Notes under the pieces: model-generated
What the model saw: the letters and a program-made list of their open reading frames with translations, nothing else
What the model was told of the DNA's origin: nothing
Databases searched by the model: none
Origin: a candidate division WWE3 bacterium UBA1401
Lineage (GTDB): Bacteria > Patescibacteriota > WWE3 > UBA101185 > UBA10185
DNA: 64,000 bases
Assembly: GCA_002305115.1 (NCBI GenBank)
Contig: DBQF01000001.1
Location: 224,916-288,915, forward strand
Direction of reading: 5' to 3'
Position numbers and translations under genes: made by a program
Part shown: positions 661 through 52,684 of the stretch, in pieces
How positions within the stretch are numbered: position 1 is the stretch's first letter
How the letters are laid out: every line of letters begins with the position of its first letter

Positions 661-740
661 GTTCTGCTAAGGCAGTTTTTCAATTATAATCTATAGTCAC
701 CTTTGGCCTGCACTCCTTTTGTAGGGCTGATGAGGTTTTA

Positions 741-827
741 AGTATTTATCTGTTTACTAATTCTTCGTAGTTTTCCATCATGAAATCATGGTAGAAGTCA
801 TTTTCCGATAAATACCTGTATACATTT
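741..827. repeat. 87-bp repeat, copy 1 (3' end of the 746-1184 gene)
   Basis: Aligns with 1842-1928. The core 775-827 vs 1876-1928 is 52/53 identical. On the minus strand it encodes '...NVYRYLSENDFYHDFMMENYEELVNR*'. Confidence 0.8.
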
Positions 828-2211: not shown

Positions 2212-2400
2212 TGGTTGGGGTGATCCTCCTACGTCCTTCGGACTTCGGCGGGCAGGGACTCGGTTACTTGTCAGCAAATGTGGCCGTGCCATCCAAAGCG
2301 TTAACAGTAGTCGATAGAATTATTTCTAAATTGGTATTGTCTAGCTATTCTATAAAGGAAATCTGTCTGCGACGGATGGTCGGGGAAACAGGATTAGAAC
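2212..2400. repeat. left copy of a ~190-bp direct repeat carrying tRNA-Pro 3'-end-like termini
   Basis: Aligns with 9759-9951. The 124-bp core 2262-2385 is identical to 9813-9936. Termini are TGGTTGGGGTGAT (2212-2224) and TGGTCGGGGAAACAGGATTAGAAC (2377-2400, 20/24 identical to the tRNA-Pro 3' end). Confidence 0.85.
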
Positions 2401-2430
2401 TGCTCAATATACTAAAAGGTATTACCATCT

Positions 2431-3084
2431 TTGCTGTATAATTGCACTATGGACCCAAAAGGTAAAAAGCTGATGACAGTATTTGCCCATCCTGACGATG
2501 CTGAAATATGGGCAGGTGGAACAATAGCCAAATGGGATAAACGTGGTGGTAAATCCCTGGTTGTTTGCTTTACAACAGATGGCACGAGAAAAGATGAGGC
2601 GAGACGGGGCGCAAGTATTTTAGGGTCCGAACTCTCAATAGTTGAAGATAACCCTGAATTCAGTAAGCCCAACATCGAGCTAGTATCAAAGGAGATAGAA
2701 GAATTTAGTCCGGAAATTCTTATAACACATACATCGCAAGACTCTCATCCGGAGCATCGCGCTGTCTTTGAAATAGTGTCGAATTCGATAATTAACTCAA
2801 GAATCAGGCAAGGAAAACCCAAGTTGTTGTTATGTGCGGATACATATAATGAAATTTGTTTAGATGGAGTTTTCAATCCAAACATCTACGTTGATGTGTC
2901 TGATTATTTTGATCTTAAAATGGCGGCGATAGAAATTTACAAATCACAACCGTTCGACATGTGGAAGAAAGTGGCCACAGATCAAAATGAATTGCTTGGC
3001 TCTAGACTGTCGGAAGTCAAATATGCGGAAGGTTTCATCCAGGTACCCATTTTAGGGAAGTTAGCCAATCTTTCCCTCTTTTGA
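2431..3084 (+). CDS. PIG-L/LmbE family N-acetylglucosaminyl deacetylase
   Basis: 'VFAHPDDAEIWAGGT' signature and 'HPEH' motif. Start may be a later Met. Confidence 0.85.
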   Translation: MLYNCTMDPKGKKLMTVFAHPDDAEIWAGGTIAKWDKRGGKSLVVCFTTDGTRKDEARRGASILGSELSIVEDNPEFSKPNIELVSKEIEEFSPEILITHTSQDSHPEHRAVFEIVSNSIINSRIRQGKPKLLLCADTYNEICLDGVFNPNIYVDVSDYFDLKMAAIEIYKSQPFDMWKKVATDQNELLGSRLSEVKYAEGFIQVPILGKLANLSLF

Positions 3085-4211
3085 TGAGAATAGCATTTAC
3101 ATTTCTGACATATGGTACAAATATTTTTGGGGGTATTGAGAATGCACTTTTCAATTTAACTAAAGGCTTGAAGGATATTGGGCATGAGGTCTCTGTTTTT
3201 ACTAGTTCAACATATCTAAGTACTAATGGGAATCTTCCCGCTAACGTATATCAGTCGAAACATCTACCTACAAAATATGATGGGAATGTAAACAGACTCA
3301 TTTCCTATTTGCAAGATCATAGCAAACTTATTAACAGTGACCTTGATTCCTTCCTCGAGAAATGTAAGCCAGACCACGTTGTTGTTGTGGATCCTATTTG
3401 GGGAATCCTAGAAGCGACCGCTTACATTAACAGGAGAAACATCCCCATATCTATGTCTTATCATATAGCCAATGATTGGCCAGAAACAAGACCGATAATG
3501 GAACGTTCCCTACTTAACCAATACGCTAACTTTTTTGTTGTAAGCAGGTTTTTGGAAACAGAAATAAAAGGTAAATTTAATGTGGCTAGGGATGTAAAAA
3601 TGAAAATTTTACCAAACTCTATCGATACTTCCTTATATAGTGATCCTTCTAGCATTCCAGAGGAATATATCTTCTGTAATTCAAGGATAGCGGAAGGAAA
3701 AAATGTTGACGTCTTAGTCAATGCCTTCAGCACAATTAAGGACGATGGTTTGGAATTAGTACTTTGTACAGGAAAATTTCCTTTTGGGGATTCCGCTAAC
3801 GTAGTTAATAAAATGGAAAGACTTGTCAAAGAACTACGGATAGAGAATCAAGTTAAATTTTTACCCAACATAAATTGGGTGGATGTCCCAGCGATGGTTA
3901 AGAAATCCTATGCTGTTGTATTACCCTCAACTTATGAGACGTTTGGAATCGCAGCACTAGAAGCCTCCGTTGCTGGTGTTCCTCTGATAGTTGCGGATGC
4001 CACGAATTTTAAGAATCTTGTAAAACGGAATGCACTTTTTTTTACACCGAATGCTATAGAAGATCTAAGCAAAAAAATACGGACGCTACGTAGAAATTAC
4101 AAATACTATAGAGACAAATCTAGTAAAGACAAAGTGCATTTTATAAATAACTTCGATAATATAGTTGTTGCAGAAAGGCTTGTGAATGAAATACATTCTA
4201 ACAACGTGTAG
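3081..4211 (+). CDS. glycosyltransferase family 4 (GT-B)
   Basis: 'GGIENALFNL' N-terminal motif and 'YETFGIAALEASVAGVPLIV' C-terminal motif. TGATG overlap with the upstream gene. Confidence 0.85.
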   Translation: MMRIAFTFLTYGTNIFGGIENALFNLTKGLKDIGHEVSVFTSSTYLSTNGNLPANVYQSKHLPTKYDGNVNRLISYLQDHSKLINSDLDSFLEKCKPDHVVVVDPIWGILEATAYINRRNIPISMSYHIANDWPETRPIMERSLLNQYANFFVVSRFLETEIKGKFNVARDVKMKILPNSIDTSLYSDPSSIPEEYIFCNSRIAEGKNVDVLVNAFSTIKDDGLELVLCTGKFPFGDSANVVNKMERLVKELRIENQVKFLPNINWVDVPAMVKKSYAVVLPSTYETFGIAALEASVAGVPLIVADATNFKNLVKRNALFFTPNAIEDLSKKIRTLRRNYKYYRDKSSKDKVHFINNFDNIVVAERLVNEIHSNNV

Positions 4212-4593
4212 TAAAGACAAAGATGAGAGCAAGGTCCTTCTTCCAGCTATTCAGAGATATACGGACAACCGTGTTGCATATGTATACAGAATAAGCAAGA
4301 AATTGTCGTTACCCATGATCATATTTTCTGGTAAATACGGGATCTTGAAAACCAATGATCCGATTCCATTTTATGACCTTAGATTGGAGAAAGAACATGT
4401 TGATGCAATGGTTGAAAAGGTTGCGGGTCAGTTCCACCAGTTAAGTGTTTCCAAAATAGATTTCTATGGTTTAGATGAACAAACTCATACTGATTGGGTA
4501 CCCTACTATGATGTTATTAGAGAGGTTTGTGTACAAGTTGGTACAGAACTGAATATTATCCATTTAAAAGAGAGTGAATATGCCACAAAATAA
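4186..4593 (+). CDS. hypothetical protein (135 aa)
   Basis: ORF overlapping both neighbours within the GT operon. No firm motif. Confidence 0.5.
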   Translation: MKYILTTCSKDKDESKVLLPAIQRYTDNRVAYVYRISKKLSLPMIIFSGKYGILKTNDPIPFYDLRLEKEHVDAMVEKVAGQFHQLSVSKIDFYGLDEQTHTDWVPYYDVIREVCVQVGTELNIIHLKESEYATK

Positions 4594-5809
4594 ACCTTTT
4601 TTACCGCACTGGTTTAAGTATATTGACTTGGAAAGCAAGAGACAGTTCAATGCTGAACTGTTCAAGGATGGTTCATTTCGTATTTATGAGCGTGAAACTA
4701 TCAGAGGTCAGGATCAAAACATTGCAATTTTTCTCGATGGTGTATTCCACCCCACTACAACAGGAGCTGCCTATTACTTTATGAATCTTTTGGTAGGCCT
4801 TGCAGGAAGTCCGCTAAATGTTTTTTTGTTTAGATGTTATAGAGGGTGGGAAGATCCATATATTTATGAAAAATTACCATTTAGTACTGTATGTATAGAT
4901 CCAGAAGTATTTTATGATGATCTTACGTCACAAATAGACGTATTACGAAAATACTCTATTCGTACTCTGATTTTTGACACATCTGAAGTTATTTTACGAC
5001 AAGGGGTTTACTTTAAGGAGACTTTGAAATCAAAAATAATCCACGATATACAAAATGTAGACCATGTTTTATCGAAAATGGGAGGTTTGTCCCCTGATGT
5101 AGTGGAAAAACAAAAACAAGAACTTCTCGCTGCAGATAAATACGTGGATTTATATTGGGCAAAGACGGAAATGGATAAAGTACAACTACAGAATGTAGGG
5201 ATAGACCCGCATAAAATCAGAGTAAGGCATCCTATTATTGATACTAAGAGAATACGTTACTCCTTAAGGAAGAAACTAGGAAATCCTGTTAAAGCACTCT
5301 TCCTTGGAAACATGTCTTATCCCCCCAATATAGAGGGTTTAGAAGTCCTGGAGAACACCTACAAAGATTGTGTGACGAATGGCATTAGGCTTGAAATTGA
5401 CGTTGTAGGAGAAGGTGATTTGGCAACGCTTGCAGAGAAGTTCCCCCACCTCAATTTAAAAGGTAAAGTGGATAGCATAAATGACCTCTTCTTGGATTAT
5501 CATTTAGCATTCGCTTGTCCCTCGTATGGATCAGGTATTAGCCTTAAGGTTTTGGATTATATGGCAGCTGGATTGCCTGTTATAGCAAATGACATAGGAG
5601 TTAGAGGACATTCCCAACTGATCAGTAATTATGTCCTGATCGATAACAGAGAGTCACTTTATCCCGCTGTTCAGAGGTTATTCGAGAACCCCGAGTTTTA
5701 TACTCGTTTGAGTTCGTCAAGCCGAGTATATATAGACAAATATTTTAATCCGGAAAAAGATATACGTACCTTTGAGGATGATATAAGGGAAATTAATCTC
5801 TGTCCTTGA
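4574..5809 (+). CDS. glycosyltransferase (GT-B, GT4-like C-terminal domain)
   Basis: C-terminal 'GSGISLKVLDYMAAGLPVIAND' resembles the Glycos_transf_1 motif. Confidence 0.7.
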   Translation: MNMPQNKPFLPHWFKYIDLESKRQFNAELFKDGSFRIYERETIRGQDQNIAIFLDGVFHPTTTGAAYYFMNLLVGLAGSPLNVFLFRCYRGWEDPYIYEKLPFSTVCIDPEVFYDDLTSQIDVLRKYSIRTLIFDTSEVILRQGVYFKETLKSKIIHDIQNVDHVLSKMGGLSPDVVEKQKQELLAADKYVDLYWAKTEMDKVQLQNVGIDPHKIRVRHPIIDTKRIRYSLRKKLGNPVKALFLGNMSYPPNIEGLEVLENTYKDCVTNGIRLEIDVVGEGDLATLAEKFPHLNLKGKVDSINDLFLDYHLAFACPSYGSGISLKVLDYMAAGLPVIANDIGVRGHSQLISNYVLIDNRESLYPAVQRLFENPEFYTRLSSSSRVYIDKYFNPEKDIRTFEDDIREINLCP

Positions 5810-6443
5810 CCAGGTAAATGCCAGGTAAGCTTACCCCAGTTACGATAGCCTTCCATACTATTTGACCTAGTGTTAGTCCTAGAGCTGTAGATATGCCCAA
5901 GGATTCCCCACCAAAAATCAGAGGTAAGGTAGTGAAGGCCAAAACAGCAAATATCAGTGAGTCTACTGGCAAACTTACAGCATTACTGACCAAAACCCTT
6001 GACCACTGGGGAAATTTGGCAAAGCGACTTTTCCACAGCTGGTATATTTCAGTATCTAACAATTCGCTAACAACTTCAGCTATTATAGAAGCAATAGTAA
6101 TTGAAGGCACTAAACCAAAAATTGAATTCCATGCCCCCTCTAATGCGAAGAACTTTGGGGAAGGAAGAAACGTCATTAGTTGTAAGTAAAAAGCCATTAT
6201 CAAATTCAGGCCTCCCGCTGTTAGAATTGTTGCTCTTGCCCACTCTTTTCCTAGCCTCTTATGTAACATATCTCTCAATGTAAAAGTTAAGGTGAAAATG
6301 AATGTACCCGCAGGTATAGCAAAACCATAAATCCGCACAATCTTTGTTGCTCCTATATCAGCTAACGCTTGAAATACGAGGTATGATCCCACAAGCAGAA
6401 CTATTGTCCATATTTCTTTTTTGTTAAGATTACTCAGACTCAT
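5793..6443 (-). CDS. yhhQ: queuosine-precursor (preQ0/preQ1) transporter, YhhQ/DUF165 family
   Basis: Multi-TM protein with 'ADIGATKIV...AGTFIFTLTFTLRDMLHKRLGKEWA', typical of YhhQ. Confidence 0.75.
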   Translation of the reverse strand: MSLSNLNKKEIWTIVLLVGSYLVFQALADIGATKIVRIYGFAIPAGTFIFTLTFTLRDMLHKRLGKEWARATILTAGGLNLIMAFYLQLMTFLPSPKFFALEGAWNSIFGLVPSITIASIIAEVVSELLDTEIYQLWKSRFAKFPQWSRVLVSNAVSLPVDSLIFAVLAFTTLPLIFGGESLGISTALGLTLGQIVWKAIVTGVSLPGIYLVKDRD

Positions 6444-6879
6444 TTTTTATTGTAGTCAAAATTTTTACAAGTTCTTCTTCTGTTTCAGCCATATTCTGTC
6501 CAATACTTTCTGTTATCATAATATTATCGTAACCCTGTTTATCCATGCTTCTTATATCTGTTTTAAAACCAACACATTTCTTTCCTAAAATATAAGCCAT
6601 TCCAAGTTCAGCACATGTTCCTTCGTCTGGTACCCTTCCATCCAGTAAACACAATATTATGTCACATTTTTTAACGCCCTCTAAATCATTATTAAAAATT
6701 GTTTTTCTTAATTTTGCGGTGTCACTTGTGTTTTTGCTTAAGTCACTAAACCTACCTGCTTTGTCTTGTGGCAAGTGGACTACAAAACCCAAATCCTCAA
6801 CGAGTTTTTTTATATGTAAATTTCTGTGCCACTCCATTTCATTAAATAGTGGCGCGGCGATATATATTAAAATTCCCAT
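6430..6879 (-). CDS. nucleoside 2-deoxyribosyltransferase family protein
   Basis: 'IYIAAPLFNEME' and 'PDEGTCAELGMAY' motifs. 14-nt overlap with yhhQ. Confidence 0.75.
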   Translation of the reverse strand: MGILIYIAAPLFNEMEWHRNLHIKKLVEDLGFVVHLPQDKAGRFSDLSKNTSDTAKLRKTIFNNDLEGVKKCDIILCLLDGRVPDEGTCAELGMAYILGKKCVGFKTDIRSMDKQGYDNIMITESIGQNMAETEEELVKILTTIKNESE

Positions 6880-6941
6880 ATGCTGAGAATAATATCATAT
6901 AAAATCCTCTAACAATAATGCATACCTGGTATACTAAACCT

Positions 6942-6977
6942 AGGCTGAGTTAGGGAGATACACGCCTAATTCAGCCT
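6942..6977 (+). promoter_or_regulatory. 5'-leader hairpin of the RT operon (13-bp stem, 10-nt loop)
   Basis: AGGCTGAGTTAGG (6942-6954) pairs with CCTAATTCAGCCT (6965-6977). The one non-WC pair is G-U on the + strand only. An extended -10 TGGTATACT at 6927-6935 puts the predicted TSS at about 6942. The ATG is at 6985 with no SD. Confidence 0.5.
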
Positions 6978-6984
6978 ATTTAAT

Positions 6985-7719
6985 ATGACAACAGACTTAC
7001 TCGATAAAGCCTTTAAACTTCTAAGAAGGAATTATGGTTGCCCCGGTCTAGATGGCGTTTCTTTAAGAGAGATAAAAAAAGATTATAACAAGCATAAAAA
7101 TGTGGTTTTGGGCAAATATACTGAGAATCAAGTAAACTCCTTGTCAATAAAGACAACTACTATAATTGATTATGGAGGTAAAGAAAGGGAAATATTTGTT
7201 TATTGCATCCATGAAAGATGGTTGCAAATGTACCTGAAATTACAAATTGAACATGACATTGAGAAGAACTTGAAAAGTTATGTTTTCGGTTATAGAAAAG
7301 GTGTGACAATGAAGGACTTGCATAGCTACTTACTTAATACCGGTCTCGAGCATATCCTTCATTTAGATATAGCCAAATATTTTGATCAAATTGATAGAGA
7401 ATCACTCTTTAATTTTCTAGAACACAATATTGGTGTAAGTAGAGACATCCTTGTTAAGATTCAAAAGAGTGTTTCTCATACAAATAAAGGATTGCCGCAA
7501 GGCAATGTTTTGTCCCCTATTCTATCAAATGTCTACCTTATACCCTTTGATAAGTGCTTTCCAGAAAATTATGCAAGATTTAGTGATGATCTCTATTTTG
7601 CACTAGGAACTCCCAGGAAAAAGGATGAAATGGTTAAGAAAATTAGCGAGCATCTACTTAAACATAAGCTTAAGATAAATTATAGTAAACTGGAAATTAA
7701 GAATGTTAACAAATTCTAA
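6985..7719 (+). CDS. reverse transcriptase (RNA-directed DNA polymerase), unusually short, no thumb region
   Basis: RT motifs: 'GCPGLDGVS', 'LDIAKYFDQID', 'GLPQGNVLSPILSNVYL', 'RFSDDLYF' (FSDD catalytic box) and 'KLKINYSKLEI'. The ORF ends about 8 aa after the last motif. Confidence 0.85.
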   Translation: MTTDLLDKAFKLLRRNYGCPGLDGVSLREIKKDYNKHKNVVLGKYTENQVNSLSIKTTTIIDYGGKEREIFVYCIHERWLQMYLKLQIEHDIEKNLKSYVFGYRKGVTMKDLHSYLLNTGLEHILHLDIAKYFDQIDRESLFNFLEHNIGVSRDILVKIQKSVSHTNKGLPQGNVLSPILSNVYLIPFDKCFPENYARFSDDLYFALGTPRKKDEMVKKISEHLLKHKLKINYSKLEIKNVNKF

Positions 7720-8569
7720 AGAAAAAAGAATACTGATAATGGATGGAAGTCACTACCTATATAGGGCATATTATGGAGTTCCAGATAGTGCAAAATTGCC
7801 AAGTGGTCTGCAAGTGAATGCTGTATATGGTTTTTTTGCATACCTAAGAAAAGTGGTGGATTCTGTAAACCCTTCTAACATTGTTGTTGTTTTTGACTCG
7901 GAAACCGGTATCTCTGAAAAGGTGGCTCAAAATACCTCCTATAAAGCAAACCGGAACTATTCAGATACGGGAATGTATGAGCAGTTGCCCATAATAAAGA
8001 AAATCTTAACCTTTTTATGCATTCCATATATTGAACCTGACAATCTTGAGGCCGATGATTATATAGGGGCATTAGCTGTGAGAAGCAAAGCTAGAAGTTA
8101 TACATTGATATTTTCGAATGACGCAGATTTTCTCCAACTGTTGGATGATTCCCTTAACGTAGTAAAGATGGGAAGAAAACAACCAGAGATCATGGATAAT
8201 GATAGTTTTTATGAGGTCTTCGGTTTTGAAAGTAAATACTATGTTGATTATTTAACGTTGAAAGGGGACCCAACGGATAATGTCAGGGGGGTACCGGGTA
8301 TCGGCAAAAAAACTGCCCAAAAGTTTATTTCCACCTATAACTCTATTGATAATATATACGCAAATCTTTCTGATCACCCGGAGAGAATGCGGCATTTACT
8401 ACTTGAGTATGAGTATGTTGTGAAAAGTACGTACGAACTACTGAAAATAGACACCTCTGTTGGGACCGAGGATATTGAAGAAATACTCAAAATCCCGTTT
8501 CAAAAGCATGATGAGTTGAAGAATAAAACTAACCACTTACTAACTTGCGTTGGAACTAACACTAGATGA
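7703..8569 (+). CDS. 5'-3' exonuclease / flap endonuclease (Pol I N-terminal domain family)
   Basis: 'MDGSHYLYRAYY', 'VVVFDSE', 'EADDYIGAL', 'SNDADFLQL' and H3TH 'GDPTDNVRGVPGIGKKTAQKF'. Start lies 17 nt inside the RT ORF. Confidence 0.85.
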   Translation: MLTNSKEKRILIMDGSHYLYRAYYGVPDSAKLPSGLQVNAVYGFFAYLRKVVDSVNPSNIVVVFDSETGISEKVAQNTSYKANRNYSDTGMYEQLPIIKKILTFLCIPYIEPDNLEADDYIGALAVRSKARSYTLIFSNDADFLQLLDDSLNVVKMGRKQPEIMDNDSFYEVFGFESKYYVDYLTLKGDPTDNVRGVPGIGKKTAQKFISTYNSIDNIYANLSDHPERMRHLLLEYEYVVKSTYELLKIDTSVGTEDIEEILKIPFQKHDELKNKTNHLLTCVGTNTR

Positions 8570-9636
8570 ACGTGGAAATTGTGAATGATGAAGAGTCGTT
8601 TAGAAAGATGGCAGCTGATTGGGAAAAATTATACAAAGTATTTGAGTATACTACACCCTACCAAAGCTGGAATTGGAATTACTTGTACTGGGAGTATTTT
8701 AAAGGGAAAAAGCAGCTAAAAGTATTTAGATATGATTTAGACGGTACTGTTAGCGCAATCTTTCCAATGTGGGTACGAGAACAACTAGGTCTTTCCGTAT
8801 TGGAACCAATAGGAACCAGAGGCACTGATTATATACATTTACTGCTAAAAACTGAGCAAGCAGAAGATGTAATTGATAACTTTCTCGAATGGTTTAGTCT
8901 CTCTAGATTAGACGTTTTAAATTTGGAAGATATACCGCATTCTGCGTTTTATATTAATATTTTGAGAACAAAATCAATTAAACATGGATTGTTTTATTAT
9001 CTAGATAGTAAATACTGCCCTTGTTTTGAAATAGATCTCCCTGATAAATGGGAGGACTATCTAAGAACGTTATCTAAAAGAGATAGGTCTGATATAGATT
9101 ACTACCGCAGATATGCTGCTAGAAACACACAAAATGTTACTTATATACAAGGTGGGTTTAGTGATTTGAAAGAGCACTTTCGTCTACATCAAAAGGTGCG
9201 TGAAAACAGAGGTGACAAAGGAGCCTACAAAATAACTCCTGTTAGAAACCTGGTAACAGAGTATATTTCGTCTTTGGAAAACGAAGGCGACTTGAAATTG
9301 GTTTTTTTGGAAATAGATAAAACGCTTTGTGCAACAATTCTGGGTATCGAGAAAGACTTGGTTAGATTCAATATGACAATAGGGCATGATCCTACATTCT
9401 CTAAGCTAAGACCAGGAACTTTGCTTTATGGATATGATATCGAGAATTGTATCAAGCAAGGTGTAAAGAAGTACGACCTTTCTAGAGGTCCCGACCCTTA
9501 TAAGAGTAAAATGGGAGCAAGGTTGAAGTTTAATACGCGAATGGTGCTAACCAAATCAAAGGAGCATGCTAGTCAGTATTTAGAAAATCAGAAAATATAT
9601 TGGAAGAACGAAGACTACGCACCAACTGAAAAGTAG
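8566..9636 (+). CDS. GNAT-fold acyltransferase, FemAB/CelD (BioF2-like) type
   Basis: N-terminal 'FRKMAADWEKLY...TPYQSWNW' pattern typical of CelD/BioF2-like acetyltransferases. ATGA overlap with the nuclease gene. Confidence 0.65.
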   Translation: MNVEIVNDEESFRKMAADWEKLYKVFEYTTPYQSWNWNYLYWEYFKGKKQLKVFRYDLDGTVSAIFPMWVREQLGLSVLEPIGTRGTDYIHLLLKTEQAEDVIDNFLEWFSLSRLDVLNLEDIPHSAFYINILRTKSIKHGLFYYLDSKYCPCFEIDLPDKWEDYLRTLSKRDRSDIDYYRRYAARNTQNVTYIQGGFSDLKEHFRLHQKVRENRGDKGAYKITPVRNLVTEYISSLENEGDLKLVFLEIDKTLCATILGIEKDLVRFNMTIGHDPTFSKLRPGTLLYGYDIENCIKQGVKKYDLSRGPDPYKSKMGARLKFNTRMVLTKSKEHASQYLENQKIYWKNEDYAPTEK

Positions 9637-9758
9637 CTAAATTAAAAAAATCAAGCCAAGTCAATCAAAACAGCGGTTCGGGAGTTTAAAAAACAACAAG
9701 GCTTTTTGCAAGCCGTTAAAAGAAAATTTAGGCATACTGGTCACTTTGATGCCCATTC

Positions 9759-9951
9759 TGGTCGGGGTGACCCTCCTACGTCCTTCGGACTTCGGCGGGC
9801 AGGCAGGGACTTGGTTACTTGTCAGCAAATGTGGCCGTGCCATCCAAAGCGTTAACAGTAGTCGATAGAATTATTTCTAAATTGGTATTGTCTAGCTATT
9901 CTATAAAGGAAATCTGTCTGCGACGGATGGTCGGGGTGACAGGACTCGAAC
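9759..9951. repeat. right copy of the ~190-bp direct repeat (includes the tRNA-Pro 3' end)
   Basis: See 2212-2400. TGGTCGGGGTGAC at 9759-9771 duplicates the first 13 nt of the tRNA-Pro 3' end found at 9928-9940. Confidence 0.85.
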
Positions 9952-10003
9952 CTGCGGCCTCACGCACCCCATGCGTACGCGCTTCCAACTGCGCTACACC
10001 CCG
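9928..10003 (-). tRNA. tRNA-Pro (anticodon GGG), CCA encoded
   Basis: Manual cloverleaf: CGGGGTG TA GCGC AGTTGGAA GCGC G TACGC ATGGGGT GCGTG AGGCC GCAGG TTCGAGT CCTGT CACCCCG A CCA. Confidence 0.85.
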
Positions 10004-10043: not shown

Positions 10044-10289
10044 TCATAACCTAGTTTTCAAGAATCTTCTCCCAAAACCTGTCTTCAAATACTTTTCTCG
10101 TTTTAAAGCATTTTCTTTACTTAGGCAGCCCTCAAAGTAAACGAGTTCCCAAGGACGCCCATATTTTGTTGCATCCACTTTACCTTTGTTGTGTAACAGA
10201 AGCTGTTTCCTTATTGATTCAGAATAACCTACGTACAATTTACCAGTTTTCTTGCTTTTTAGCACATAGACATAGGTATAGTAAAACAT
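10044..10289 (-). CDS. GIY-YIG nuclease family protein (81 aa)
   Basis: 'YVYVLKSKKTGKLYVGYSESIRKQLLLHN...' has the GIY/YIG motifs. 'ALKREKYLK' C-terminal motif. Confidence 0.85.
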   Translation of the reverse strand: MFYYTYVYVLKSKKTGKLYVGYSESIRKQLLLHNKGKVDATKYGRPWELVYFEGCLSKENALKREKYLKTGFGRRFLKTRL

Positions 10290-20975: not shown

Positions 20976-21050
20976 CCTCACCCCCTTAATCCCCCTCTCC
21001 ATCAACTGCTGATGGAGAGGGGGACAGGGGGAGGGGGTTAGGAGGTGAGG
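20976..21050 (-). terminator. very GC-rich hairpin terminator after the 21038-22141 gene
   Basis: Perfect 14-bp stem CCCCCTCTCCATCA (20991-21004) / TGATGGAGAGGGGG (21010-21023). Outer CCTCACC/GGTGAGG pairing. On the minus strand it is followed by TTTTGCCAATTTTT. Confidence 0.6.
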
Positions 21051-22141
21051 TGTCTTAGGAGGGCGACAACATCCGGATCGCCTTGCACATCGCCGTCTTT
21101 CAACTCCAAGACCTCTCCGCCCTTTCTAAGCAAATTAACCACAATAAAATTCACCAAACTCTTATTATTCCCGTCCTTCCTTTCTTTCCTCACAAACACA
21201 TGCTCTACATGCCCGTAACTTGCTTCTTTAGCAATCTTTTCCAAATCATCTACAATAACCCTACTACTTCCCATTGCGTCATTAAGTTCTTCTACCCTTT
21301 TCTGCCGTTTGTTTTCAACAAACCCTTGTGCTACTTCCCAAGCCTGTTTTGCCAGCTGTGCATTGCTCGCCGTATGTGCGTCTATTTTTACAGACTCATC
21401 TGCTACATTTACATGCGAACTAATATCTTTATAAATGGGGTAATATTCGTCCAAACACGCCAGTATTAAAGGTGTTTCTTCATCTGTTATCACTTCTGTT
21501 ACTTTTTCATTTACTTCTATAAAGAACTCTCTGATATCTTCTTCTTTTGCGTCTTTAAACTCACCCTGGCCGTGAAACCGCAGTGGCGATTTTTTTGACC
21601 CAGTGGTATGAAACTGTAGCTGTTCCGGTACATTTATGAAATCAAAAAGTTCATTAATATTATTGGGAATAACGTGCTTGCCCACTTGTCTGCATGCCTT
21701 GTTAACGCATTGCAGAAGCCTTACATTTTTGAGATCAAGTGCCAGAACATAATAATCTATGTGGTCAAACATGTAGTTAACAAGTTGTGTTAGGTCAAAG
21801 TATTTGCCTATGTAACTTCTTTCTTCAACTGGTGTAGGTAATTGTATTATTTCTAAACTTTGGGGTGATACATAAAGCATTAAACCTTCCAGTTGTTGCT
21901 GCCAAAAGCTTTCATCTGTTTCTAGCCCCTCAAGTTTGGATAGCAAATCATGCTGTAAAGCTGTACTGGCTTCAAGTTCGGTTTTTACTTCTTTTATTTG
22001 ATTAGTGAGCCTGATTTTTGTCTGTTCCGTATTATCCCATTGTCTTTCTGATGGTAAACTCACACTAACTTTTATGACACTAGTATCTTGAGCTAGTTCT
22101 TTAAGTTCTGCGAGTAGATTTTTTTTGGTTAATAATTCCAA
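21038..22141 (-). CDS. hypothetical protein, possibly baeRF (bacterial archaeo-eukaryotic release-factor-like) family
   Basis: The N-terminal pattern 'VSVSLPSER...TKIRLTNQIKEV' resembles what I remember of baeRF families. Unverified. Confidence 0.35.
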   Translation of the reverse strand: MELLTKKNLLAELKELAQDTSVIKVSVSLPSERQWDNTEQTKIRLTNQIKEVKTELEASTALQHDLLSKLEGLETDESFWQQQLEGLMLYVSPQSLEIIQLPTPVEERSYIGKYFDLTQLVNYMFDHIDYYVLALDLKNVRLLQCVNKACRQVGKHVIPNNINELFDFINVPEQLQFHTTGSKKSPLRFHGQGEFKDAKEEDIREFFIEVNEKVTEVITDEETPLILACLDEYYPIYKDISSHVNVADESVKIDAHTASNAQLAKQAWEVAQGFVENKRQKRVEELNDAMGSSRVIVDDLEKIAKEASYGHVEHVFVRKERKDGNNKSLVNFIVVNLLRKGGEVLELKDGDVQGDPDVVALLRHLTS

Positions 22142-52319: not shown

Positions 52320-52684
52320 GTTTTTATTGTAGAACGAAAAAAGGAGATTCGGTAACCTGTTTTTATCTGTAACTCACTCACTTCGTTCGTTAACATCTGA
52401 AAGCCCGCTACACTCGCTTCTTCGCTACTCTGGGTCCGCATTATACTCATCCTTTGTCCAATAATGAAAAATTCCCGCCAACCTCTCGCTTTGCTCAAGG
52501 CTTACGGGAATTTTCATGGCTGAGCATGTCGATCAGGAACCTTATTAATCCTGCACAATATCAATCCTGCTTGATACAGCAAAACCTACCATTCCTCCCC
52601 ATTGAGTGGCTGTTTCTGGAGGCGTGTTATCTAAAGCTACAAATAACACCAAATAAAAAGCAGGTTTAGAGATGAATTCAGTGT

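What the first reader, a model, noticed from the sequence alone, without database searches (positions are those of the whole stretch)
2212..10003. 7.36-kb segment bracketed by ~190-bp direct repeats that begin and end with copies of the tRNA-Pro 3' end; no integrase present
Seen in sequence: 2212-2400 and 9759-9951 are direct repeats with a 124-bp perfectly identical core (2262-2385 = 9813-9936). Each repeat is bounded by tRNA-Pro 3'-end sequence (+ strand TGGTCGGGGTGAC...). These are the intact tRNA at 9928-10003, a 13-nt copy at 9759-9771, a 24-nt copy at 2377-2400 (20/24 identical) and a 13-nt copy at 2212-2224 with two C>T changes. Between the repeats lie PIG-L deacetylase, two GT4 glycosyltransferases, yhhQ-NDT and the RT-FEN-GNAT operon. 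I found no integrase, excisionase or transposase ORF anywhere in the 64 kb. Established knowledge: duplicated tRNA 3' ends are attL/attR scars of integrative islands. What is unusual here is that the repeat extends about 155 nt beyond the tRNA, is doubly bounded by tRNA ends, and the only polymerase/recombination-type gene inside is an RT. Speculation: on + strand RNA these motifs are complementary to the tRNA-Pro 3' end, starting with TGG like a retroviral primer-binding site. The two C>T changes in the outermost copy would keep that pairing as G-U.
Basis: partly seen in the sequence, partly recalled or inferred. Interest (0 to 1): 0.7.

Follow-up and report, generated by a model that had tools for sequence, protein, structure and literature searches.

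The report
Integrase-less island in tRNA-Pro trailer repeats
A 7.4-kb gene cassette (reverse transcriptase, flap nuclease, sugar-modifying enzymes) sits behind a proline tRNA gene between two copies of that tRNA's short trailer element; relatives show the cassette comes and goes at copies of the tRNA's 3' end without an integrase of its own, and nothing supports the idea that the tRNA primes the reverse transcriptase.

Summary
Repeats 2212-2400 and 9759-9951 share an exact 124-nt block. Four tRNA-Pro 3'-end copies bound them (0.37 expected by chance). No integrase family matched any of the 37 ORFs tested.

The "155 nt beyond the tRNA" is a trailer unit (S). It starts right after the tRNA's CCA and ends with a 13-nt copy of the tRNA 3' end, like E. 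coli tRNA-linked repeats. About 20 metagenome loci of relatives carry analogous units behind tRNA-Pro. One family has a covarying structure and no Rfam match.

The segment between the repeats is a conserved cassette, the G2L reverse-transcriptase multigene system already noted in the literature. In a sister lineage a 6,267-nt cassette is 99.95-100% identical in six contigs, yet it has three left and four right partners, always joined at TGGTCGGGG. Two related genomes share both flanks but lack the cassette.

Best reading: an integrase-less (CIME-like) island that recombines at tRNA-3'-end cores. In this window it carries a duplicated trailer unit, as expected from Campbell-type insertion of a 7,551-bp circle. 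The enzyme is unknown.

The primer-binding-site idea is not supported. The inner left copy lies upstream of the inferred operon promoter. Distant RT cassettes lack the motif. The same architecture occurs with RT-free cargo.

The parts
2212..2224 (-). Outermost 13-nt copy of the tRNA-Pro 3' end (TGGTTGGGGTGAT on the + strand, two C>T changes). It is the 3' terminus of trailer-unit copy A when read on the tRNA strand.
2225..2376 (-). Trailer unit S, copy A (152 nt). It is a tRNA-linked-repeat-like element and lacks the 4-nt CAGG present in copy B.
   Evidence: The strand is assigned by analogy with the units behind tRNA-Pro in relatives.
2377..2400 (-). Pseudo tRNA-Pro 3' end 'a3' (TGGTCGGGGAAACAGGATTAGAAC, 20 of 24 identical to the tRNA). 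This is the left boundary of the island. It is 24/24 identical in lineage B, where the cassettes are only 71-73% identical.
2437..2451 (+). Conserved TATAAT box (2437-2442) 6 nt before the probable PIG-L start ATG 2449. This is the likely promoter of a leaderless operon mRNA (inferred).
   Evidence: the Logan gene call places the start at window 2449; conserved in L003-L011
2449..5809 (+). PIG-L deacetylase (to 3084), GT4 glycosyltransferase (3081-4211), DUF6884/YaaA-like protein (4186-4593) and a second glycosyltransferase (4574-5809).
5793..6879 (-). Vut_1/YhhQ-family transporter (5793-6443) and nucleoside 2-deoxyribosyltransferase (6430-6879). This pair is optional: present in the window and L009/L010, absent in L003-L008.
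6985..9636 (+). Group-II-intron-like reverse transcriptase of 244 aa (6985-7719), 5'-3' exonuclease/FEN (7703-8569) and Acetyltransf_6 GNAT (8566-9636).
9637..9758 (-). Conserved spacer between the GNAT stop and the first tRNA-end copy. It carries terminator-like hairpins on the tRNA strand (for example 9714-9700) and ends in the invariant CATTC junction.
9759..9771 (-). 13-nt exact copy of the tRNA-Pro 3' end. This is the right boundary of the cassette; L003/L006 have the intact tRNA at this position.
9772..9927 (-). Trailer unit S, copy B (156 nt), directly behind the CCA end of tRNA-Pro. It ends in the hairpin CCCGCC...GGAGGG followed by the tail UCACCCCGACCA.
9928..10003 (-). Intact tRNA-Pro(GGG) gene with encoded CCA.

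Best explanation
The 7.4-kb segment is an integrase-less genomic island of the 'cis-mobilizable element' type. It sits in the trailer of the tRNA-Pro(GGG) gene.

**Cargo.** The cargo is a conserved operon: PIG-L deacetylase, two glycosyltransferases, a DUF6884/YaaA-like protein, a group-II-intron-like RT, a flap nuclease and a GNAT. In this window it also includes a YhhQ-type transporter and a deoxyribosyltransferase. This matches the 'G2L RT cluster 4' multigene system already described as a putative defence cassette.

**Ends.** The island's ends are copies of the tRNA-Pro 3' end:
- on the tRNA side, CATTC|TGGTCGGGGTGAC;
- on the far side, the conserved pseudo-copy TGGTCGGGGAAACAGGATTAGAAC.

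**Origin of the ~190-bp repeats.** In this genome tRNA-Pro carries a ~155-nt trailer unit (S). S begins right after the CCA and itself ends in a 13-nt copy of the tRNA 3' end, the same architecture as E. coli tRNA-linked repeats. One copy of this unit now lies on each side of the island.

That is the expected product of Campbell-type recombination between a 7,551-bp circle (cassette + 13-mer + S + pseudo-copy) and a chromosomal site of the form flank-13-mer-S-tRNA. It is equally the product of an exchange between two isomers in which the cassette occupied the two alternative cores.

**Status of each step.**
- Shown: the anatomy; presence/absence of the cassette in a sister lineage; near-identical to identical cassettes with different partners joined exactly at the cores; recurrence of the architecture with another cargo.
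- Inferred: the circular intermediate; the recombination is catalysed in trans, either by an unidentified site-specific recombinase acting on the TGGTCGGGG cores or by host homologous recombination across the 124-190 bp of identity; the trailer units are co-transcribed with the tRNA.
For: 1. **Anatomy and statistics of the repeats:**

2. **The cassette is one unit.** Homology of L009 to the window runs exactly from 2435 to 9772, and L003-L011 share the order PIG-L...GNAT.

3. **The right end is fixed.** GNAT stop, then a ~114-nt conserved spacer, then CATTC|TGGTCGGGGTG in every lineage with a tRNA-Pro junction. L003/L006 have the intact tRNA exactly there.

4. **The left pseudo-copy is unusually conserved.** It is 24/24 identical between the window and lineage B, while the cassettes are 71-73% identical. 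By my own estimate that is about 0.72^24 = 4e-4 if neutral.

5. **Recent exchange at the cores.** In lineage B the 6,267-nt cassette is 100.000% identical in L003, L005, L006 and L007, with 1 mismatch in L004 and 3 in L008. Yet it has three left partners (FAD-dependent-enzyme flank, another flank, S4 unit) and four right partners (tRNA directly; 22-nt copy + S2 subtype 1 + tRNA; 22-nt copy + S2 subtype 3; 18-nt copy + S4). All joins are at TGG.

6. **Empty sites.** L042 and L035 share with L003 the left flank (84-86% nt over 1.9-2.1 kb), the tRNA-Pro (99% in L042) and the right-flank genes (69-72%). Between them they hold only trailer units.

7. **Trailer units are a general feature.** 20 of 22 metagenome loci have a tRNA-end copy, about 140 nt, then a second core, mostly directly behind tRNA-Pro(GGG/UGG). 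The S2 family has a conserved fold: 97% of cells paired versus 28-36% when partners are slid, and 6 compensatory pairs. Rfam has no match. The TLR definition is taken from PMC8144298.

8. **Independent second case, L038:** tRNA-Pro, S2, a 2.1-kb cargo without integrase, a diverged tRNA-like end, a second S2 (102 nt, 89%), then the flank.

9. **No recombinase** in the cassette or among the 37 ORFs tested in the window.

10. **Cargo already noted** as a G2L-RT multicomponent putative defence cassette (PMC8632793). In L020 a related module lies in an ICE-like region with a serine recombinase.
Against: - No recombinase that recognises the cores was found in any locus, so the catalyst is unknown.
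- No empty site, circle junction or sibling strain is available for the window's own species. Its proteins occur in one sample only.
- The window's S unit has no homologue in any fetched locus and is not a member of the S2 model. Its classification as a trailer unit therefore rests on architecture alone.
- Lineages with 41-50% RT identity have the cassette among housekeeping genes, without tRNA-Pro or flanking repeats. The cassette is therefore not always an island.
- L009 and L015 share a gene upstream of PIG-L, which fits vertical inheritance there.
- GC content differs only slightly: cassette 36.7% versus window 39.6%.
- The conservation of the pseudo-copy could reflect a regulatory site upstream of the promoter rather than a recombination site.
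Confidence: 0.62

Rival explanations
1. Retro-mobility or tRNA priming. The cassette's RT uses tRNA-Pro, or tRNA-like CCA ends, to start cDNA synthesis. Copies of the cassette are then inserted behind the tRNA gene through a tRNA-cDNA hybrid, as the Mauriceville retroplasmid does in Neurospora mitochondria or like an LTR element with a primer-binding site.
For: - The only polymerase-type gene in the cassette is an RT, paired with a flap nuclease that could remove RNA.
- Both borders fall exactly at the CCA-complement TGG.
- No integrase was found.
- The RT is nearest to group II intron RTs. From my own knowledge, not tested here, those RTs can switch templates end to end.
- No + strand terminator follows the GNAT gene, so the mRNA may read into the 13-mer at 9759.
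Against: - The pseudo-copy at 2377-2400 lies upstream of the inferred operon promoter and so is outside that mRNA.
- Two terminator-like hairpins on the tRNA strand separate the tRNA from the cassette. This argues against a long tRNA-strand template.
- No acceptor-stem partner for the pseudo-copy exists nearby (sequence).
- Distant RT cassettes have no tRNA-Pro-complementary motif and no tRNA-Pro neighbour.
- The same repeat architecture brackets an RT-free cargo in L038.
- Trailer units are widespread without the cassette nearby.
- The RT is a 244-aa fingers-palm protein with no thumb, RNase H or integrase domain.
Confidence: 0.06
2. Static chromosomal locus. The cassette is an old resident next to tRNA-Pro. 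The two S copies arose by a local duplication or gene conversion of the tRNA trailer (slippage or unequal crossing-over between short tRNA-end copies), and the cassette never moves.
For: - The cassette lies beside tRNA-Pro in the same orientation in four lineages with 68-90% RT identity.
- The spacer between GNAT and the tRNA is conserved and looks like the tRNA's native terminator region.
- Deletions between 18-26-nt direct repeats would explain L007 and L003 from a single ancestor.
- There is no integrase.
Against: - Cassettes that are 99.95-100% identical have three different left partners, two of them without any trailer homology.
- L042 and L035 keep both flanks but lack the cassette.
- L008 has the S4 unit on both sides of the cassette, with contig ends that overlap by 23 nt.
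- L038 shows the same architecture with another cargo.
Confidence: 0.17
3. The linear arrangement in the window is an assembly path. In the sample the cassette plus one S unit is a free or tandemly amplified 7,551-bp circle, and the chromosome carries flank-S-tRNA.
For: - An independent k-mer assembly of the same run yields the cassette as a separate 7,446-bp contig that begins and ends inside the repeat.
- Cassette contigs of 6.4-7.7 kb recur in other assemblies.
- The ends of L008 overlap by 23 nt.
- With a 124-nt identical core, both configurations have the same 31-mers.
Against: - The submitted record joins both copies inside a 544-kb contig.
- L003 (a MAG contig) and L006 show the cassette joined on its tRNA side to chromosomal tRNA-Pro DNA. 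In L003 it is also joined to the chromosomal left-flank genes, across a run of N. The gap-free join of that left flank to the cassette is seen in L004.
- No replication gene is evident in the cassette.
- No similar plasmid or phage record exists.
Confidence: 0.12

Closest known systems
Cis-mobilizable elements (CIMEs) and tandem accretion at att sites (definition from ICEberg 2.0, PMC6323972)
   Same: The island is bounded by direct repeats derived from the attachment site. It has no integration or transfer genes of its own. Several modules (trailer units, cassette) lie in tandem, each bounded by a copy of the same core. The modules are found in different orders in near-identical strains.
   Different: No cognate ICE or integrase is known for these cores. 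The host is a Patescibacteria/Saccharibacteria-type genome. The repeat includes a whole ~155-nt trailer unit, and the identity shared between cores can be as short as 9 nt.
Classical tRNA-gene genomic islands and prophages with attL/attR copies of a tRNA 3' end
   Same: The target is the 3' end of a tRNA gene. The tRNA stays intact. The distal repeat shows partial, decaying similarity to the T-arm, as expected of an attP-derived arm. Presence/absence is seen among relatives.
   Different: No tyrosine or serine integrase lies next to the tRNA-proximal end or elsewhere among the ORFs tested in the 64 kb. The repeat is doubly bounded by tRNA ends.
E. coli tRNA-linked repeats (TLRs; Egan and Landy 1978, as summarised in PMC8144298)
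   Same: The units lie immediately downstream of a tRNA gene. The 3' end of each unit is identical to the 3' end of that tRNA (18-19 bp in E. coli; here 13 nt for S, 18 for S4, 21-26 for S2). There are one to several units in tandem, of about 140-200 nt.
   Different: There is no sequence similarity to the E. coli units, including no RtT hit in Rfam. The phylum is different. Here the units also flank gene cargo. Expression and processing have not been tested.
G2L (group-II-like) RT 'cluster 4' multicomponent system (Gonzalez-Delgado et al. 2021, PMC8632793)
   Same: The cargo has a G2L-type RT with a 5'-3' exonuclease/flap endonuclease, PIG-L/LmbE, two glycosyltransferases and a YaaA-like protein. 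It is located on mobile or defence-island DNA.
   Different: The queuosine-synthesis genes (queC/D/E) are absent. In the window and L009/L010 a YhhQ-family transporter and a nucleoside deoxyribosyltransferase take that place. A GNAT of the Acetyltransf_6 type is present.
LTR-retroelement primer-binding sites and the Mauriceville retroplasmid (my own knowledge, not checked in papers here)
   Same: An RT gene lies between direct repeats that contain tRNA 3'-end sequence. Retroplasmid variants integrate at tRNA genes through tRNA-cDNA hybrids.
   Different: The tRNA-like CCA ends are on the strand opposite to the RT mRNA. The left motif lies outside the inferred transcript. There is no RNase H or integrase domain. 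The architecture also occurs without an RT.

Membership tests
tRNA-targeting genomic island (integrase type) | Direct repeats of the tRNA 3' end at both borders, with the tRNA gene intact | tested here: met
   the same holds in L003/L006
tRNA-targeting genomic island (integrase type) | A tyrosine or serine integrase gene inside the island, usually next to one att site | tested here: not met
   All nine cassette genes belong to other families. No recombinase family was found in the 37 window ORFs scanned.
tRNA-targeting genomic island (integrase type) | Presence/absence polymorphism with conserved flanks | tested here: met
   Met for the sister lineage: L003 is occupied, L042/L035 are empty. 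It could not be tested for the window's own species.
Cis-mobilizable element (CIME) | attL and attR are retained, with no integration or transfer genes | tested here: met
Cis-mobilizable element (CIME) | A cognate integrase-bearing element uses the same att site and mobilises it | tested here: inconclusive
   None was found in 46 loci, in the viral contigs or in plasmid and phage records.
tRNA-linked repeat (TLR) | The unit lies immediately downstream of a tRNA gene and its 3' end is identical to the tRNA 3' end (18-19 bp in E. coli) | tested here: met
   S is identical over 13 nt. The S2 and S4 units of relatives are identical over 18-26 nt. The definition comes from PMC8144298.
tRNA-linked repeat (TLR) | Transcribed with the tRNA and processed to a discrete RNA | not testable with these tools
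   Indirect only. There is no terminator between the tRNA and S in the window, and terminators follow the 13-mer. The S2 fold covaries on the tRNA strand.
tRNA-linked repeat (TLR) | Sequence homology to the E. coli TLR/RtT family | tested here: not met
   No Rfam family other than tRNA matched
S2-type trailer element (model R1 built here) | Matches the covariance model over its three helices | tested here: not met
   For window S only the terminal hairpin plus tail aligns (12.7 bits). There was no hit with default filters.
LTR retroelement / primer-binding site | The PBS lies inside the element's own transcript, next to the 5' repeat, and is conserved wherever the RT occurs | tested here: not met
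   The copy at 2377-2400 is upstream of the inferred promoter. There is no such motif in L014-L020.
LTR retroelement / primer-binding site | RT with RNase H and an integrase | tested here: not met
   The RT has 244 aa and only an RVT_1 domain
Diversity-generating retroelement / retron | A template/variable repeat pair that differs at adenines and lies in a target gene, or an msr-msd RNA upstream of the RT | tested here: not met
   The repeat differences are C/T changes and an indel. The indel shifts the frame of the only shared ORF. The best RT matches are generic or group-II-like. No Rfam retron RNA was found.
G2L RT cluster-4 multicomponent system (cargo) | A group-II-like RT together with 5'-3' exonuclease, PIG-L/LmbE, two glycosyltransferases and a YaaA-like protein | tested here: met
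   The YaaA/DUF6884 match is weak (E = 1.7e-4, below the Pfam cut-off).
G2L RT cluster-4 multicomponent system (cargo) | Linked queuosine-pathway genes (queC/D/E) | tested here: not met
   These genes are absent. A Vut_1/YhhQ transporter and an NDT are present instead.

The most novel reading that the evidence does not exclude
The tRNA-Pro 3'-end cores and their structured trailer units form a cassette-exchange system of a new kind in Patescibacteria. Gene modules and small RNA-like units would be shuffled at tRNA-derived cores without any integrase. The exchange could go through an RNA or cDNA intermediate that uses tRNA-like CCA ends (with the G2L RT and flap nuclease taking part when present), or through folded single strands of the trailer units acting as recombination sites.
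Probability: 0.08. Interest if true: 0.85.

Novelty: new variant of a known kind. Interest (0 to 1): 0.45.

Why it matters
If the reading holds, it gives a clear case of recent gene-cassette mobility in ultra-small Patescibacteria. Mobile elements are poorly known in this group, and the island here carries no recombinase.

It shows how a putative RT-based defence or nucleic-acid-modification module spreads. In a sister lineage a 6.3-kb cassette that is 99.95-100% identical sits in several junction contexts.

It shows that tRNA-linked repeats, unexplained in E. coli since 1978, have structural counterparts in a distant phylum. There they mark the joints at which cargo is exchanged. That offers a testable hint about what such repeats are for, or how they arise.

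It also yields a candidate new structured RNA family (S2) behind tRNA-Pro.

The unusual repeat has an ordinary recombinational explanation, and the RT is cargo, not engine, on present evidence.

Tried and rejected
- **Rfam scans.** I scanned the region and 19 related loci. Only tRNA was found.
- **Single-sequence folds of the repeat.** Neither strand folds better than shuffled sequence (z = -0.3 and -0.5).
- **Is window S an S2 member?** I built covariance model R1 from the S2 units to test this. It is not a member.
- **Sibling strains of the window organism.** Exact-protein look-up found one sample only.
- **Genome-contig scan with an RT profile.** It returned three loci, two already known.
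- **Viral-contig scans.** The junction and the pseudo-copy gave nothing. The tRNA-Pro 21-mer hit only phage tRNA arrays.
- **Plasmid and phage BLAST of the cassette.** No match.
- **Integrase hunt.** I looked in the window and in the flanks of L022, L023 and L038. None was found.
- **DGR and retron readings.** Rejected: the differences are not at adenines, and there is no msr/msd.
- **IMEX/dif reading.** Considered and dropped, because the repeat is a tRNA end with no resemblance to dif. This rests on my own knowledge.
- **Protein-coding reading of S.** Rejected, because the 4-nt indel shifts the frame of the only shared ORF.
- **Group II intron reading of the GC-rich insert in L021/L022/L034.** Not supported by Rfam.
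- **The gene upstream of PIG-L in L009/L015.** Pfam gave nothing.

Full report
**1. The observation**

The repeat finder gives 2247-2400 / 9798-9951 (154 nt, 96%) and 2212-2256 / 9759-9803 (45 nt, 96%). The two registers differ by a 4-nt CAGG indel. The longest exact block is 124 nt, 2262-2385 = 9813-9936.

tRNA-Pro(GGG) lies at 9928-10003 on the minus strand. The 13-mer TGGTCGGGGTGAC, allowing up to 2 mismatches, occurs four times, at 2212, 2377, 9759 and 9928, all in the same orientation. Chance expectation is 0.37, and 0 of 100 shuffles reached 4.

The nine genes between the repeats are:
- PIG-L
- GT4
- a DUF6884-like protein
- a second glycosyltransferase
- Vut_1/YhhQ
- nucleoside deoxyribosyltransferase
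- a 244-aa RT
- a 5'-3' exonuclease (FEN)
- an Acetyltransf_6 GNAT

No recombinase family was found there. None was found in 28 further ORFs of the window either.

**2. The cassette is a conserved unit**

The RT has only 19 homologue clusters. All are about 245 aa and come from Patescibacteria/Saccharibacteria-type bins. Their contigs show the same operon, PIG-L-GT4-DUF6884-GT-RT-FEN-GNAT. The YhhQ/NDT pair is optional.

Homology of L009 to the window runs from 2435 to 9772, that is, from the promoter to the end of the 13-mer. L011 is the window's cassette with 2873-7045 deleted.

A review had already noted this association. [quoted passage not shown] The nearest solved RTs are group II intron RT domains.

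**3. The borders**

In every lineage that has a tRNA junction, the GNAT stop is followed by a conserved ~114-nt spacer. The spacer carries terminator-like hairpins on the tRNA strand. It is followed by CATTC|TGGTCGGGGTG. In L003 and L006 the intact tRNA-Pro sits exactly there and there is no S. The window's 13-mer at 9759 is therefore the position of the original tRNA end, and S lies between it and the present tRNA.

Upstream of PIG-L, the window and lineage B share TGGTCGGGGAAACAGGATTAGAAC, identical at 24 of 24 positions, although their cassettes are 71-73% identical. A conserved TATAAT lies 6 nt before the PIG-L ATG. It is downstream of this pseudo-copy.

**4. Evidence for mobility**

In lineage B the 6,267-nt cassette is 100.000% identical in L003, L005, L006 and L007. 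L004 has 1 mismatch and L008 has 3. Its partners nevertheless differ.

| Side | Partner | Loci |
|---|---|---|
| Left | FAD-dependent-enzyme flank | L003, L004, L006 |
| Left | an unrelated flank | L005 |
| Left | an S4 unit | L008 |
| Right | the tRNA directly | L003, L006 |
| Right | 22-nt copy + S2 subtype 1 + tRNA | L007 |
| Right | 22-nt copy + S2 subtype 3 | L005 |
| Right | 18-nt copy + S4 | L008 |

Every join is at the T of TGG. The ends of L008 overlap by 23 nt, so in that sample the cassette and S4 alternate, either as a circle or as a tandem array.

L042 and L035 keep the left flank of L003 (84-86% nt), the tRNA-Pro (99% in L042) and the right-flank genes (69-72%). Between them they hold only trailer units and no cassette.

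**5. What the extra 155 nt is**

I scanned metagenomes for the junction GGGGTGRCMGGACTCGGTCAC. This gave 22 loci, 20 of them real. In these loci a copy of the tRNA-Pro end is followed by about 140 nt and then a second core. In 13 of them an intact tRNA-Pro(GGG or UGG) stands at that second core. Some loci have two or three units in tandem.

Read on the tRNA strand, a unit has this layout:
- It starts right after the CCA with a terminator-like hairpin.
- It continues with a conserved region.
- It ends with 18-26 nt identical to the tRNA 3' end.

That is the defining architecture of E. coli tRNA-linked repeats (PMC8144298).

The S2 family folds into three helices with compensatory changes. In the alignment, 97% of cells are paired versus 28-36% when partners are slid. 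Six pairs have compensatory changes. 41 cells changed on both sides versus 13.8 in shuffles (0 of 500 shuffles reached the observed value). These counts lean toward the structure, because the alignment was fitted to the model. Rfam has no match.

The window's S is a different sequence. It has no homologue in the fetched loci and is not a member of model R1. It does have the same position and the same kind of end: a hairpin followed by UCACCCCGACCA. It also contains a decayed inner copy (GTAACCAAGTCCCTG versus GTGACCGAGTCCTG). I therefore class S as a trailer unit by architecture, not by homology.

**6. How the 190-bp repeat arose (inference)**

One copy of the unit lies on each side of the cassette. 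A single crossover between two partners gives exactly the window's order:
- a 7,551-bp circle consisting of cassette, 13-mer, S and pseudo-copy;
- a chromosomal site of the form flank, 13-mer, S, tRNA.

The crossover could fall anywhere in the shared ~190 bp or at a core. An exchange inside the cassette between two isomers (cassette at the tRNA core, and cassette at the 13-mer) gives the same product. Its reciprocal product is the S-free arrangement seen in L003.

The same architecture recurs independently in L038. There the order is tRNA-Pro, S2, a 2.1-kb cargo (an HTH_3 protein and small membrane proteins, no integrase), a GC-rich piece ending in a diverged tRNA-like end, a second S2 copy (102 nt, 89%), and then the flank.

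Joins in lineage B that lack any trailer homology, such as L003 and L005 on the left, argue for recombination at the short cores themselves. That points to a site-specific enzyme supplied in trans. None was found.

**7. The primer-binding-site idea**

- The left inner copy is outside the mRNA made from the inferred promoter.
- Terminator-like hairpins separate the tRNA from the cassette on the tRNA strand.
- RT cassettes with 41-50% identity lie among housekeeping genes, with no tRNA-Pro and no complementary + strand motif at their borders.
- RT-free cargo shows the same repeats (L038).
- Trailer units are common without the cassette.

Complementarity at 9759-9771 follows simply from adjacency to a convergent tRNA gene. 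I keep a small probability for an RT-linked mechanism, because no recombinase is known and both borders fall exactly at the CCA complement.

**8. Limits**

- There are no read data, so integrated form, circle and tandem array cannot be separated for the window.
- There is no empty site for the window's own species.
- The catalyst is unknown.
- Expression of S is untested.
- The conservation of the pseudo-copy could be regulatory.
- L014 (48% RT identity) has a different 37-nt direct repeat at both cassette borders. This hints that flanking repeats recur, but I did not resolve what they are.

**Verdict**

The segment is an integrase-less, CIME-like island in a tRNA-Pro trailer array. The long repeat is a duplicated tRNA-linked-repeat-like unit. 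The RT is cargo. Novelty is moderate: a new variant of known kinds, with a candidate new RNA family and unresolved enzymology.

Noticed in passing
L021-L042 (for example L036 4088-4207 +, L035 2170-2291 -, L007 6271-6371 -): S2-type element: a ~100-125-nt structured unit directly behind tRNA-Pro(GGG/UGG). It has three helices with compensatory changes, and its last 21-26 nt equal the tRNA 3' end. It has no Rfam match and is a candidate new RNA family with tRNA-linked-repeat architecture.
   Followed up: partly
L008 1-153; L042 (oriented) 2358-2560; L033; L036; L021: S4-type unit: a second, unrelated trailer-unit family that follows the S2 unit in several genomes. It ends in an 18-nt tRNA-Pro end copy. 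In L042 it carries an internal ~60-nt duplication.
   Followed up: partly
window 52331-52455 (-): Weak full-length match to the S2 model (28.3 bits, E about 4e-4 over 300 kb) in an intergenic gap, not next to a tRNA. Many pairs are non-canonical. It is either a decayed relic or chance.
   Followed up: partly
window 5793-6879 (-), also L009/L010: A YhhQ/Vut_1 transporter and a nucleoside 2-deoxyribosyltransferase sit inside the RT cassette, where published G2L cluster-4 systems carry queuosine-synthesis genes. The DUF6884 protein gives weak DpdC hits in PADLOC. This hints at a salvage-based link to 7-deazapurine or modified nucleosides.
   Followed up: no
L038 834-3117; also L021, L022, L034 next to their S2 units: A GC-rich ~190-nt piece ending in GGTTCGAGCTTCGTCCAGTAATTGCGACCA (a diverged tRNA-like end) stands where tRNA-Pro would be, in front of an S2 unit. 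In L038 it closes a 2.1-kb integrase-less cargo. It has no Rfam match.
   Followed up: partly
L014 1-40, 325-361, 7194-7230: In a lineage with 48% RT identity the cassette is bracketed by a 37-nt direct repeat (81%, TTAAACCCCCAACCA...), with a third partial copy at the contig start. The repeat is not the tRNA-Pro end and has the opposite polarity. Cassette contigs of 6.4-7.7 kb recur across assemblies.
   Followed up: partly
L011 467-1600: The closest relative of the window's cassette (89% nt) has an internal deletion equivalent to window 2873-7045. It fuses PIG-L to the RT in one ORF of 377 aa.
   Followed up: yes
L020 900-19334: A related RT with PIG-L, DUF6884, GT4 and FEN genes lies scattered in an ICE-like region. 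That region holds a large serine recombinase, a transposase, a TraG/VirD4-like ATPase, FtsK and RadC, and lies next to tRNA-Glu.
   Followed up: no
L009 2-274 and L015 1-251: A conserved gene of unknown family lies directly upstream of PIG-L in two lineages (about 50% aa identity over the C-terminal 85 residues). It may be a further component of the module. It is absent in the window.
   Followed up: partly
window 736-827 and 1837-1928: A 92-nt direct repeat (88%) lies in the left flank, near a DUF5674 gene (1482-1820) and a truncated PIN gene (341-562). The left flank looks like accessory, decaying DNA.
   Followed up: no
window 2437-2451: TATAAT lies only 6 nt before the PIG-L ATG and is conserved in all lineages. 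The operon mRNA is probably leaderless.
   Followed up: no
window 10044-10289 (-): A stand-alone 81-aa GIY-YIG protein gene starts 40 nt from the 5' end of tRNA-Pro. A GIY-YIG gene also lies next to a tRNA-Gln in L015.
   Followed up: no
window 21038-22141 (-): A 367-aa protein with bacterial archaeo-eukaryotic release-factor (baeRF) domains, a family usually discussed in conflict systems.
   Followed up: no
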